Below, one piece after another: positions 13,181 through 15,496 of a DNA stretch of 32,000 bases. The notes below the pieces were generated by a model. It was not told the origin of the DNA. It ran no database searches and saw only the letters and a list, made by a program, of their open reading frames with translations. The DNA is taken from positions 1,778,424-1,810,423 of the forward strand of contig NZ_JBHUOZ010000001.1 in NCBI RefSeq assembly GCF_042686025.1, in the 5' to 3' direction. The stretch comes from Terrimonas rubra (GTDB lineage Bacteria > Bacteroidota > Bacteroidia > Chitinophagales > Chitinophagaceae). The translations under genes and the position numbers were made by a program. The first letter of the stretch is position 1. Each line of letters opens with the position of its first letter.

Positions 13181-15496
13181 ATGCATTTTAGTGAAACCGT
13201 TATCCGGCAACTGGCGAATGACCAATACCGCCTGGATGTAAAAGTAAGCCGGCTGAAAGGATATGATGAAGAGAATTTTTTACTGGAAGACAGTGTGGGA
13301 AAAAAGTATATCCTGAAAGTAGCAACGGAAAACCATCACTACGGTTTTATTGCAGCGCAGGTAGCTATTTTACAACATCTTTCCGGAACGGGTATGAAGG
13401 ACATGTTCCAGCAAATTGTACCCGATATACAGGGCGATCCTATATCAGTTGTAAAATATTCCGGTGCTGTTTATTATATCAGGGTGCTTACTTACCTGGA
13501 TGGAACATTCTGGGCTGATAATAAAGACCGTAGTGATGCATTATATACCGACCTGGGTACTTTTTTGGGTAAGATGGATAAGGGCTTACAACATTTTTCA
13601 CATGCTGCCATACACCGGCATTATACCTGGGATGTGGCCAACGCCATCGATGCTTATACGAATGTAAAATATATAAAGGATCATGAACTGCGCAGGATGG
13701 TCGGCTATTTTTTACTGCAGTTTGAAACAGAAGTAGCACCCTTTCTCTCTTCGTTACGGCAGGCCTATATTCATAATGATGCAAATGACCTGAATATTTT
13801 AGTTGGGAATGACAGGATAAAAGGGCTGATCGATTTTGGTGATATGGTGTACAGCGCCCTGGTCAATAACCTGGCCATTGCCTGTACCTATGCTATGTTT
13901 GATACGGCCGACCCTTTACATGTAGCTGGTAAAATAGTGGGAGGGTATCACAGGGAGTACCCTTTGACAATGCAGGAAACGGACCTGCTTTATTACCTGG
14001 TAGCCGCCAGGTTGTGCATCAGCCTTACACAATCGGCCTATAATGCTTCGTTAAGCTCACAGAATGAGCATCATTTTGTGTCGGAAAAACAGGCCCGGGA
14101 TTTATTATACCGGCTCATCAAAATAAACCCGGTAAAGGCACAGGATGGTTTCAGGTTGTCCTGCGGCTTTCCACCGTTAATTGATAAAACTGCCGGGTAT
14201 GGTTCATTACTGAAGGAAAGAAAAAAACATATCGGCCGCAACCTGAGTATAAGTTACCGGCAGCCTTTAAAAATTGTAAAAGGCGCATTGCAGTATTTGT
14301 ATGATGATCGGGGTAATACATTTGTGGATTGTGTTAATAATGTAAGCCATGTTGGGCATTGTCATCCTACAGTGGTTAAAGCGATGCAGAAACAAATCGC
14401 TATACTAAATACAAACACGAGGTATCTGAATGACAACATTACTGCGTATGCGAAAGCATTGATACAAACTTTACCGCCTAAACTTTCTGTATGTTATTTT
14501 ACCAATTCGGGCAGTGAAGCGAATGACCTGGCCATAAGAATGAGCCGGCATTTTACCAAACAACAGGATGTGATTGTGTTAGATCATGCTTACCATGGAA
14601 CAACAACTGTTGCCATGGAAATGAGTCCTTATAAGTTTGACGGGAAAGGCGGGTTTGCACAAAAGCCATATATCCACAAAGCCGTTTCTCCCGATCTATA
14701 CCGGGGTGAATTCCGCTATCAGCACGAAGATGCCGGCAGTAAATATGCCGGTTCCGTTAAAAACATTATTGAACAGTTATCTGCAGCTGACAAAGGTGTT
14801 GCGGCCTTTATCTGCGAAACACTTTTGGGCGTGGGTGGTCAGATACCTTTGCCCGCAAACTACCTGAAAGAAGTATATAGTTATGTGCAGGCAGCCGGTG
14901 GAATTTGCATAGCCGATGAGGTACAGGTTGGCTTTGGAAGAGTGGGTGAAAGGTTCTGGGGCTTTGAATTACAGGATGTAGAGCCGGATATAGTTGTCTT
15001 GGGAAAACCTATAGGGAACGGGCATCCGCTGGCGGCTGTGATTGTAACCGAAGAGATCGCGGAGCGCTTTAATAACGGAATGGAATATTTTAATACCTAT
15101 GGGGGTAATCCTGTTTCCATGACCACGGGCTTGTCGGTATTAAATGTAATAAAGGATGAAAGCCTGCAGCAGCATGCGAAAGAAACCGGGGAACATCTCC
15201 TGCATTTGCTTAGGCTTTTAATGGATAAATACTCCATTATTGGCGATGTAAGGGGACATGGGCTGTTTATTGGCGCCGAACTGGTGCGTAGCCGGGAAAC
15301 AAAAGAACCTGCCGTACAGGAGATCAATGAGATTGTTGAAAGGATGAAGGAGAAAGGATTTTTATTAAGTACAGACGGGCCTTTATATAATGTACTAAAA
15401 ATAAAACCACCCCTGGTATTTAACAGGATCGATGCAACGGAAATGGTAGCAAAACTGGAAGAAGTATTGGAGGAGATGAATATGGATAAGGTATAA
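13181..15496 (+). CDS. Bifunctional fusion: hydroxylysine-kinase-like APH-fold kinase (aa 1-320) plus AGXT2L-type class-III PLP enzyme, i.e. phospho-lyase-like (aa 341-771)
   Basis: 771 aa, no signal peptide. Kinase half: [20 protein letters not shown], catalytic [11 protein letters not shown] (Asp200 codon 13778-13780) and IDFGD (217-221), paralleling human HYKK/AGPHD1 as I recall it. PLP half: [66 protein letters not shown] (Schiff-base Lys609 codon 15005-15007), [14 protein letters not shown] and NVLKIKPP. These are near-identical to motifs of human ETNPPL/PHYKPL. The gene starts 10 nt after the GH63-like gene. Confidence 0.85.

What the first reader, a model, noticed from the sequence alone, without database searches (positions are those of the whole stretch)
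13181..15496. Single-polypeptide kinase + phospho-lyase (HYKK-like fused to AGXT2L-like)
The N-terminal 320 aa carry the APH/choline-kinase fold catalytic motifs ([13 protein letters not shown]). They share several idiosyncratic blocks with animal hydroxylysine kinase ([15 protein letters not shown]). The C-terminal 430 aa match the AGXT2L (ETNPPL/PHYKPL) subfamily almost motif for motif ([51 protein letters not shown]; Lys609). These enzymes are phospho-lyases rather than true transaminases. Fusion implies channelling of a phosphorylated amino-alcohol intermediate. The substrate of the bacterial fusions has, to my knowledge, not been established.
Basis: partly seen in the sequence, partly recalled or inferred. 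Interest (0 to 1): 0.65.

Follow-up and report, generated by a model that had tools for sequence, protein, structure and literature searches.

The report
Hydroxylysine kinase/phospho-lyase fusion in collagen-sugar locus
One 771-residue protein joins a small-molecule kinase to a PLP phospho-lyase of the animal ETNPPL/PHYKPL type, and it is the last gene of a conserved Bacteroidota uptake locus that appears built to strip glucose and galactose off collagen's hydroxylysine and then break that amino acid down.

Summary
ORF 13181-15496 (+) encodes 771 aa: an APH-fold kinase (Pfam 26-259) and a class-III PLP domain (362-763). All quoted motifs and Lys609 are in place. The PLP half is 55.5% identical to human ethanolamine-phosphate phospho-lyase and lies far from this genome's ordinary class-III transaminases.

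The fusion type is not new. Bacterial fusions of this kind were the clue that identified the human enzymes in 2012.

The context is what informs. The gene ends a co-directional string of SusC, SusD, GH2 beta-galactosidase and YgjK-like GH63 alpha-glucosidase. In 80 related loci the fusion recurs with GH63 plus a beta-galactosidase (GH2, or GH42 in Flavobacterium). It also recurs with piperideine-6-carboxylate dehydrogenase, HglS and YdiJ, the route from 2-aminoadipate semialdehyde to 2-oxoglutarate.

The most likely substrate is therefore 5-hydroxylysine released from collagen-type Glc-Gal-Hyl (about 0.75). This rests on inference from context; nothing was assayed. HYKK and PHYKPL sequences could not be obtained, and channelling is untested.

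I found no paper describing such a bacterial pathway. This scan has already reached the same reading on many other genomes, and on this window as a separate finding.

The parts
13181..15496 (+). Fusion gene, 771 aa: kinase plus PLP phospho-lyase. No signal peptide, so predicted cytoplasmic.
   Evidence: ORF and translation; Pfam APH plus Aminotran_3; N-terminus [11 protein letters not shown] without a leader; 80 full-length homologues at 61-89% identity.
13181..14200 (+). Kinase half (residues 1-340), APH/ELK fold. Catalytic K46, H198-x-D200-xxxx-N205 and D218 (IDFGD).
   Evidence: Pfam PF01636; invariant residues; AlphaFold2 pLDDT 93.8; Foldseek best matches are type-II homoserine kinase 2ppq, amicoumacin kinase, NahK, APH(9) and aminopropanol kinase 6ef6, all at 18% identity or less.
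14201..15496 (+). PLP half (residues 341-771), AGXT2L/ETNPPL-type phospho-lyase domain. PLP-binding Lys609.
   Evidence: 6tor 4e-152 at 55.5% identity, 5g4i 1e-91 at 38.6%; clade separate from the genome's own class-III aminotransferases.
11218..13170 (+). GH63 YgjK-like alpha-glucosidase with a signal peptide, 10 nt upstream of the fusion. Proposed to remove the alpha-1,2-glucose.
   Evidence: [quoted passage not shown]
8043..11156 (+). GH2 LacZ-type beta-galactosidase with a signal peptide. Proposed to remove the beta-galactose from hydroxylysine.
   Evidence: Pfam GH2 domains; NCBIfam beta_gal_Bga2A 994.9 bits against a cut-off of 999; leader; replaced by a GH42 beta-galactosidase at the same position in Flavobacterium loci.
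6428..7954 (+). SusD-like outer-membrane lipoprotein.
   Evidence: Pfam SusD_RagB and SusD-like_3; lipoprotein-type leader ending in Cys; conserved upstream in 38 of 65 loci with enough flank.
3284..6409 (+). SusC-like TonB-dependent transporter.
   Evidence: Pfam Plug, TonB_dep_Rec_b-barrel and CarbopepD_reg_2; synteny.
997..2727 (+). TPR protein, a possible regulator of the locus.
   Evidence: Pfam TPR. Weak NCBIfam similarity, far below cut-offs, to sensor kinase FimS, the BT3442 family and the SusR regulator. Homologues lie next to the locus in L061, L071, L098 and L100. The role is inferred only.
15588..16937 (+). DUF389 membrane protein downstream. Probably not part of the system.
   Evidence: Pfam DUF389. 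Among the 80 related loci it is conserved only in the nearest relative, L001.

Best explanation
The protein is a bifunctional cytoplasmic enzyme.

- The N-terminal APH-fold kinase phosphorylates the 5-hydroxyl of free 5-hydroxy-L-lysine.
- The C-terminal PLP domain, working like PHYKPL or ETNPPL, eliminates phosphate and ammonia from 5-phosphohydroxylysine. The product is 2-aminoadipate semialdehyde, which is in equilibrium with piperideine-6-carboxylate.

It is the last step encoded by a polysaccharide-utilisation-type locus. The proposed sequence is:
1. SusC/SusD take up collagen-derived Glc-alpha1,2-Gal-beta-O-hydroxylysine, free or on short peptides.
2. The secreted GH63 removes the glucose.
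3. The secreted GH2 removes the galactose.
4. The freed hydroxylysine enters the cytoplasm through a carrier not yet identified.
5. The semialdehyde joins general lysine catabolism. In this genome that means an unlinked piperideine-6-carboxylate dehydrogenase. In many relatives it means adjacent P6C dehydrogenase, HglS and YdiJ, leading to 2-oxoglutarate.

Shown here: domain identities, catalytic residues, leader peptides and conserved synteny. Inferred: every substrate, the order of the steps, and any channelling between the two domains.
For: 1. Domains and catalytic residues are intact.

2. The PLP half belongs to the phospho-lyase clade and not to the transaminases.

3. Synteny across the 80 best loci from Chitinophagaceae, Flavobacterium, Pedobacter and others:
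- Of 65 loci with at least 6 kb upstream, 47 carry a beta-galactosidase, 37 carry GH63 plus a beta-galactosidase, and 38 carry SusC/SusD.
- Of 62 loci with both flanks, 29 carry P6C dehydrogenase, HglS or YdiJ, and 49 carry either the glycosidases or those genes.

4. The neighbours are confirmed by family models: P6C dehydrogenase NF050084 at 837 bits (cut-off 730), HGLS PF07063 at 1e-64, YdiJ NF049975 as best hit, GH42 PF02449.

5. The linkage survives at least three different gene orders:
- P6CDH-SusCD-GH63-GH42-FUS-YdiJ
- SusCD-GH2-GH63-FUS-HglS-P6CDH
- the Pedobacter locus, where YdiJ, P6CDH and HglS lie downstream on the opposite strand
The non-homologous swap of GH2 for GH42 shows that a beta-galactosidase activity as such is kept.

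6. A divergent three-domain form (APH-M23-aminotransferase, 1010 aa, 32%/50% identity) in Winogradskyella sits directly between GH63 and GH2, with SusCD and the TPR gene beside it.

7. In another phylum an unfused kinase/lyase pair lies in a hydroxyproline-catabolism operon (Pro_racemase, DAO, DHDPS). Hydroxyproline is the other collagen-specific amino acid.

8. The GH63 is a YgjK homologue with all three catalytic residues. YgjK binds Glc-alpha1,2-Gal, the collagen disaccharide (PDB 3W7W, via PMC13671375).

9. The glycosidases and SusD carry leader peptides and the fusion does not.

10. This genome has a P6C dehydrogenase next to a saccharopine dehydrogenase to accept the product.
Against: - No enzyme was assayed.
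- The closest characterised relative of the PLP half acts on phosphoethanolamine, not phosphohydroxylysine.
- PHYKPL and HYKK sequences could not be obtained, so neither half was compared with the hydroxylysine-specific animal enzymes.
- In this window the aminoadipate-pathway genes are not adjacent, and HglS was not found in the genome.
- No conserved inner-membrane carrier was identified.
- 13 of the 62 loci with both flanks show none of the diagnostic neighbours.
- Unfused pairs in other phyla sit next to sulfatases or unrelated genes and may use other substrates.
- The related loci are kin, so the counts overstate independence.
Confidence: 0.75

Rival explanations
1. The fusion is an ethanolamine kinase plus phosphoethanolamine phospho-lyase (ETNPPL-like) that yields acetaldehyde. 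On this reading it salvages ethanolamine from lipids or glycans.
For: The best characterised homologues of the PLP half, human ETNPPL (55.5% identity) and the Arthrobacter enzyme 5g4i, both act on phosphoethanolamine.
Against: No acetaldehyde dehydrogenase or ethanolamine-utilisation genes were seen in any of the 80 loci. Instead the neighbours are P6C dehydrogenase, HglS and YdiJ, which process a six-carbon aminoadipate skeleton, together with a Glc/Gal-specific glycosidase pair. My recollection is that ETNPPL and PHYKPL are animal paralogues; if so, closeness to ETNPPL does not discriminate between the two substrates.
Confidence: 0.07
2. The fusion acts on another vicinal amino alcohol, for example 1-amino-2-propanol as in the mycobacterial microcompartment kinase/lyase pair, or an unknown glycosylated amino alcohol of microbial or algal origin. 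The glycosidases would then serve that glycoside and not collagen.
For: The aminopropanol kinase 6ef6 is among the structural neighbours of the kinase half. Unfused pairs elsewhere have varied contexts, including sulfatases. GH63/GH2 pairs also occur without the fusion, in gut Bacteroidales.
Against: Identity to 6ef6 is only 15%. There are no microcompartment genes. The recurrent link to the aminoadipate-semialdehyde pathway fits only a lysine-skeleton substrate.
Confidence: 0.12
3. The C-terminal half is a true aminotransferase and the kinase half has a regulatory or unrelated function. The fusion would then not be a two-step pathway.
For: Pfam and NCBI name the domain only as a class-III aminotransferase.
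Against: The domain sits in a well-supported clade with the two solved phospho-lyases, far from the genome's own class-III aminotransferases. Kinase and lyase genes are adjacent in all five unfused cases examined. The kinase catalytic residues are invariant.
Confidence: 0.03

Closest known systems
Animal hydroxylysine kinase (HYKK/AGPHD1) plus 5-phosphohydroxy-L-lysine phospho-lyase (PHYKPL/AGXT2L2); Veiga-da-Cunha et al., J Biol Chem 2012 (PMID 22241472; not held in the library, content from my own knowledge)
   Same: The same two reactions are proposed: phosphorylation of the 5-hydroxyl, then PLP-dependent loss of phosphate and ammonia to give 2-aminoadipate semialdehyde. The folds are the same (APH kinase and class-III PLP). 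The product feeds the aminoadipate pathway.
   Different: The animal enzymes are two separate proteins; here they form one polypeptide. Here the gene is embedded in an outer-membrane uptake and glycosidase locus. Orthology to HYKK and PHYKPL was not tested for lack of sequences.
Human ethanolamine-phosphate phospho-lyase ETNPPL (PDB 6TOR) and Arthrobacter aurescens phospho-lyase (PDB 5G4I)
   Same: 55.5% and 38.6% identity over about 418 residues. The PLP lysine and surrounding blocks are conserved. All three fall in the same clade.
   Different: Those enzymes are stand-alone and act on phosphoethanolamine. The context here points to a lysine-skeleton substrate.
NCBIfam PRK06148 / PRK06149, three-domain APH-peptidase M23-aminotransferase proteins (named 'hypothetical protein' / 'aminotransferase')
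   Same: Both halves are homologous. The Winogradskyella member (1128.7 bits, cut-off 1128) sits between GH63 and GH2 in an equivalent locus.
   Different: The window protein lacks the M23 domain and scores 939.8, below the cut-off.
E. coli YgjK (GH63), and vertebrate PGGHG (GH65) as the animal Glc-Gal-Hyl glucosidase
   Same: The neighbouring GH63 shares fold and catalytic residues with YgjK, which binds Glc-alpha1,2-Gal. PGGHG performs the proposed first step in animals (PMC11442529).
   Different: Identity to YgjK is only 30%, and several YgjK insertions are absent. PGGHG belongs to a different glycoside hydrolase family.
Bacteroidota polysaccharide utilisation loci (Sus paradigm)
   Same: A SusC/SusD pair is followed by secreted glycoside hydrolases on one strand.
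   Different: The inferred target is a glyco-amino acid or glycopeptide, not a polysaccharide. The locus ends in an amino-acid catabolic enzyme.

Membership tests
APH / eukaryotic-like-kinase-fold small-molecule kinases (Pfam PF01636) | Profile match above the curated cut-off | tested here: met
   71.9 bits against 23.2, residues 26-259.
APH / eukaryotic-like-kinase-fold small-molecule kinases (Pfam PF01636) | Catalytic loop HxDxxxxN, metal-binding Asp of the DFG-like motif, and nucleotide-binding Lys | tested here: met
   H198, D200, N205, D218 and K46. K46, D200, N205 and D218 are invariant in 31 sequences.
APH / eukaryotic-like-kinase-fold small-molecule kinases (Pfam PF01636) | Bilobal kinase fold | tested here: met
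   AlphaFold2 pLDDT 93.8. Foldseek probability 1.0 to 2ppq, 6sui, 4wh1, 3i0o and 6ef6, with TM 0.6-0.75.
Hydroxylysine kinase (HYKK, EC 2.7.1.81) | Closer in sequence to animal HYKK than to other APH-family kinases | not testable with these tools
   No HYKK sequence or structure was reachable. PDB has no significant sequence match.
Hydroxylysine kinase (HYKK, EC 2.7.1.81) | Phosphorylates 5-hydroxy-L-lysine | not testable with these tools
   Needs an enzyme assay. There is only contextual support, from linkage to P6C dehydrogenase, HglS and YdiJ.
AGXT2L-type PLP phospho-lyases (ETNPPL / PHYKPL) | Class-III fold with the PLP lysine in the GKPxGNGHP block | tested here: met
   PF00202 at 256.8 bits. 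Lys609 aligns with ETNPPL Lys278.
AGXT2L-type PLP phospho-lyases (ETNPPL / PHYKPL) | Groups with characterised phospho-lyases and not with transaminases | tested here: met
   510 bits to 6tor and 311 bits to 5g4i, against about 190 bits for the next family. The clade has 100/98 support against the genome's four other class-III enzymes.
AGXT2L-type PLP phospho-lyases (ETNPPL / PHYKPL) | PHYKPL-type (phosphohydroxylysine) as opposed to ETNPPL-type (phosphoethanolamine) specificity | not testable with these tools
   No PHYKPL sequence was available. Human ETNPPL falls in an unresolved polytomy with the bacterial kinase-linked lyases.
NCBIfam PRK06148 (three-domain kinase-M23-aminotransferase) | Whole-protein score above the curated cut-off of 1128 bits | tested here: not met
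   939.8 bits in two stretches. The M23 domain is absent.
Sus-type utilisation locus (PUL) | Adjacent SusC/SusD pair co-directional with secreted glycoside hydrolases | tested here: met
   The order is conserved in relatives.
GH63 (YgjK-like) for the neighbouring gene | Catalytic Asp/Glu pair and the fixing Asp of clan GH-G | tested here: met
   D313, D429 and E621 align with YgjK D324, D501 and E727 (residue roles from PMC13671375).

The most novel reading that the evidence does not exclude
This is a member of an undescribed bacterial pathway for collagen's glycosylated hydroxylysine. A Sus-type importer takes up a glyco-amino acid or glycopeptide, and GH63 and GH2/GH42 remove glucose and galactose. 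The kinase/lyase fusion then opens the hydroxylysine side chain, and aminoadipate-pathway enzymes carry it to 2-oxoglutarate. If true, this would give a natural substrate to three things: the bacterial YgjK-type GH63 enzymes, the protein family NCBI names 'hypothetical protein' (PRK06148), and possibly the E. coli ebg-ygjIJK cluster.
Probability: 0.65. Interest if true: 0.7.

Novelty: new variant of a known kind. Interest (0 to 1): 0.55.

Why it matters
Collagen is the most abundant animal protein. To my knowledge its Glc-Gal-hydroxylysine units resist ordinary proteases and are excreted largely intact. I found no described route for recycling them in microbes.

A substrate assignment would do three things:
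- It would turn a widespread protein family with no functional name into a defined two-step enzyme.
- It would suggest the long-sought natural substrate of bacterial GH63 enzymes.
- It would widen the Sus paradigm from polysaccharides to glyco-amino acids.

The fusion also offers a compact system for studying the kinase/phospho-lyase pair. From my own knowledge, defects in the human enzymes underlie hydroxylysinuria and phosphohydroxylysinuria.

Tried and rejected
- **HYKK and PHYKPL sequences.** The 2012 paper is not held. A homologue search with the PLP half returned only bacterial entries, many of them fragments, in its top 120. I did not type animal sequences from memory.
- **Kinase half against PDB by sequence.** Nothing significant.
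- **Full-length AlphaFold monomer.** pTM 0.56, with low confidence in the expected dimer-interface segments. It is of no use for judging channelling.
- **DUF389 as the missing inner-membrane carrier.** Among the 80 related loci the gene is conserved only in the nearest relative, so I rejected it as a conserved part.
- **HglS in this genome.** Not found. The product must go by another route after 2-aminoadipate.
- **A linked 2-aminoadipate aminotransferase.** None was found among the recurrent neighbours.
- **Sigma-70 promoter and terminator scan.** No more sites than in shuffled sequence, and the model does not suit Bacteroidota.
- **Literature.** Searches for a bacterial hydroxylysine-glycoside pathway found none. 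The library lacks most subscription journals, so this is not proof of absence.
- **Active-site determinants** separating phosphoethanolamine from phosphohydroxylysine specificity were not found in the held papers.
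Full report
**Observation.** The window holds an uninterrupted ORF at 13181-15496 on the + strand, encoding 771 aa.
- Pfam places an APH phosphotransferase domain at residues 26-259 and a class-III aminotransferase domain at 362-763, both well above their cut-offs.
- That lysine aligns with Lys278 of human ethanolamine-phosphate phospho-lyase in the block GKPxGNGHP.
- In an alignment of 31 kinase halves, the nucleotide-binding Lys46, Asp200 and Asn205 of the catalytic loop, and the metal-binding Asp218 are invariant.
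- The start codon is supported by homologues that begin MxFSE.

**The PLP half.**
- Against all PDB sequences the best matches are human ETNPPL (6tor, 4e-152) and the Arthrobacter phospho-lyase (5g4i, 1e-91). The next families (amino-acid racemases, dialkylglycine decarboxylase, GABA transaminases) score about 190 bits or less.
- Identity is 55.5% to ETNPPL and 38.6% to 5g4i.
- I built a maximum-likelihood tree with 28 fusions, one three-domain form, nine unfused bacterial homologues, ETNPPL, 5g4i and the four other class-III enzymes of the same genome.
  - The phospho-lyase group is separated from the ordinary enzymes by a long branch with 100/98 support.
  - The two-domain Bacteroidota fusions form a 100/100 clade.
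  - ETNPPL sits in an unresolved polytomy among bacterial kinase-linked lyases.

**The kinase half.**
- It has no significant sequence match in PDB.
- An AlphaFold2 model from 31 sequences is confident, with pLDDT 93.8.
- Foldseek matches it to the APH-type fold. The hits are Agrobacterium type-II homoserine kinase, amicoumacin kinase, N-acetylhexosamine kinase, APH(9) and the microcompartment aminopropanol kinase, all at 11-18% identity.
- It is thus a distinct branch of that fold and not a member of any solved subfamily.
- I could not obtain an animal HYKK sequence, so 'HYKK-like' remains untested by sequence.

**Context in the window.** The fusion is the last of five co-directional genes:
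- SusC-like transporter, 3284-6409
- SusD-like lipoprotein, 6428-7954
- LacZ-type GH2 beta-galactosidase, 8043-11156
- GH63 glycosidase, 11218-13170
- the fusion, which starts 10 nt after the GH63 stop

The GH2, GH63 and SusD carry leader peptides and the fusion does not. The GH63 is a homologue of E. coli YgjK (3w7s, 2.4e-89). It keeps the residues that align with YgjK D324, D501 and E727. [quoted passage not shown] That is the disaccharide which collagen carries on hydroxylysine (PMC11442529; PMC12003778 abstract).

**Comparative evidence.** A scan of one genome per species returned more than 500 relatives; I kept the best 80 (61-89% identity), from Chitinophagaceae, Flavobacterium, Pedobacter and uncultured Bacteroidota. 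I compared their flanks by tblastn and by clustering all ORFs.
- Typical orders are:
  - SusC-SusD-GH2-GH63-fusion in Chitinophagaceae, often followed by HglS and P6C dehydrogenase
  - P6C dehydrogenase-SusC-SusD-GH63-GH42-fusion-YdiJ in Flavobacterium
  - in Pedobacter arcticus, the first order followed by YdiJ, P6C dehydrogenase and HglS on the opposite strand
- Family models confirm the names: GH42 beta-galactosidase PF02449; HGLS PF07063 (2-oxoadipate dioxygenase/decarboxylase); L-piperidine-6-carboxylate dehydrogenase NF050084 at 837 bits (cut-off 730); D-2-hydroxyglutarate dehydrogenase YdiJ as best hit.
- Counts:

| Loci considered | Feature present | Count |
|---|---|---|
| 65 with at least 6 kb upstream | a beta-galactosidase | 47 |
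| 65 with at least 6 kb upstream | GH63 plus a beta-galactosidase | 37 |
| 65 with at least 6 kb upstream | SusC/SusD | 38 |
| 62 with both flanks | at least one aminoadipate-pathway gene | 29 |
| 62 with both flanks | glycosidases or pathway genes | 49 |

These loci are related to one another, so the numbers are not independent trials. The linkage does persist through several rearrangements and through a non-homologous exchange of GH2 for GH42.

P6C dehydrogenase, HglS and YdiJ convert 2-aminoadipate semialdehyde to 2-oxoglutarate; the 2-aminoadipate transamination step was not found linked. A kinase plus phospho-lyase that produces that semialdehyde must start from 5-hydroxylysine. This is the reaction pair established for the animal enzymes (Veiga-da-Cunha et al. 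2012, from my own knowledge).

**Further independent observations.**
- Searching with the GH63 instead of the fusion found a marine Winogradskyella locus. There a three-domain APH-M23-aminotransferase protein (1010 aa, NCBIfam PRK06148, 'hypothetical protein') lies directly between GH63 and GH2, with SusC/SusD and a homologue of the window's TPR gene alongside.
- GH63/GH2 pairs also occur without the fusion in gut Bacteroidales.
- In five unfused cases from other phyla the kinase gene lies just upstream of the lyase gene: directly adjacent in four, and separated by one opposite-strand transporter gene in L094. One such pair is inside a hydroxyproline-catabolism operon. Three lie next to a sulfatase and may have another substrate.
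- Some fusion loci that lack the glycosidases carry proline-specific peptidases instead, namely DPP-IV and Xaa-Pro aminopeptidase.

**This genome.** It has a P6C dehydrogenase elsewhere, beside a saccharopine dehydrogenase. No HglS was found. The product would therefore join ordinary lysine catabolism. The fusion is patchily distributed:
- 13 of 151 sampled Bacteroidota genomes (own genome included) have any match.
- None of the nine other genomes of the same family has one.
- Flavobacterium sequences nest within a Chitinophagaceae-dominated clade, which suggests lateral spread of the locus.

**Mechanism.**
- Most likely (about 0.75): uptake of Glc-Gal-Hyl or short glycopeptides, periplasmic removal of glucose and then galactose, import of hydroxylysine, phosphorylation, and PLP-dependent elimination to 2-aminoadipate semialdehyde.
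- Rivals: an ethanolamine/phosphoethanolamine enzyme (0.07), another amino alcohol (0.12), and a true transaminase (0.03).
- Fusion shows functional coupling. Physical channelling is not shown: the monomer model has pTM 0.56 and low confidence where the expected dimer interface lies.

**Novelty.**
- The fusion itself is known. It was the gene-fusion clue that led to the human enzymes (PMC12138971; PMC5714238).
- Public annotation still calls the protein only a class-III aminotransferase or a hypothetical protein.
- I found no paper describing a bacterial pathway for hydroxylysine glycosides. The library is incomplete, so this is not proof of absence.
- I reached the locus reading, before consulting earlier notes.
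- Those notes show that this scan has reached the same reading on many other genomes, and on this window as a separate finding.

Noticed in passing
L115 (E. coli K-12 NC_000913.3, 3222633-3231239): ygjK (GH63) lies in one co-directional run with ebgA/ebgC (the 'evolved' GH2 beta-galactosidase, whose natural substrate is, as far as I recall, unknown), ygjI (putative transporter) and ygjJ. This is the same GH2 plus GH63 pairing as in the Bacteroidota loci. The window's GH2 is 30% identical to EbgA and its GH63 is 30% identical to YgjK. A Glc-Gal-X glycoside may be the natural substrate of this cluster.
   Followed up: partly
L037:7675-9753 and the cl10 members in L006, L013, L022, L023 and L031: A secreted protein of about 670-690 aa recurs beside the fusion or YdiJ in six loci. 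It has no Pfam, NCBIfam or PDB sequence match. In L037 it lies immediately upstream of the fusion, in a locus without GH63.
   Followed up: partly
L052 and L057 (second copies in Flavobacterium gillisiae and Flavobacterium sp. W1B); L068, L009, L040, L045: Some genomes carry two copies of the fusion. The copy outside the Sus locus sits near a Xaa-Pro aminopeptidase (M24). DPP-IV-type S9 peptidases recur in four loci.
   Followed up: partly
L090, L094, L095 (metagenome contigs): Unfused kinase/lyase pairs with 57-60% identity in the PLP half lie directly after a sulfatase gene. This is a different context and may mean a different substrate.
   Followed up: no
L097, L101, L104, L107, L109: Adjacent YgjK-like GH63 and GH2 genes occur without any kinase/lyase in uncultured Bacteroidota, including gut Bacteroidales (Muribaculaceae, Bacteroides). 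An Akkermansia contig (L106) has the GH63 with no GH2 match.
   Followed up: no
window 15588-16937 and 16952-18247: A DUF389 membrane protein and a convergent MFS transporter follow the fusion. Among the 80 related loci, both are conserved only in the closest relative, L001.
   Followed up: partly
L022 and L033, about 2200-2800 (- strand): An Lrp/AsnC-type regulator lies divergent from HglS-P6C dehydrogenase-GH63-GH42-fusion-YdiJ in two Flavobacterium loci that lack SusC/SusD.
   Followed up: no
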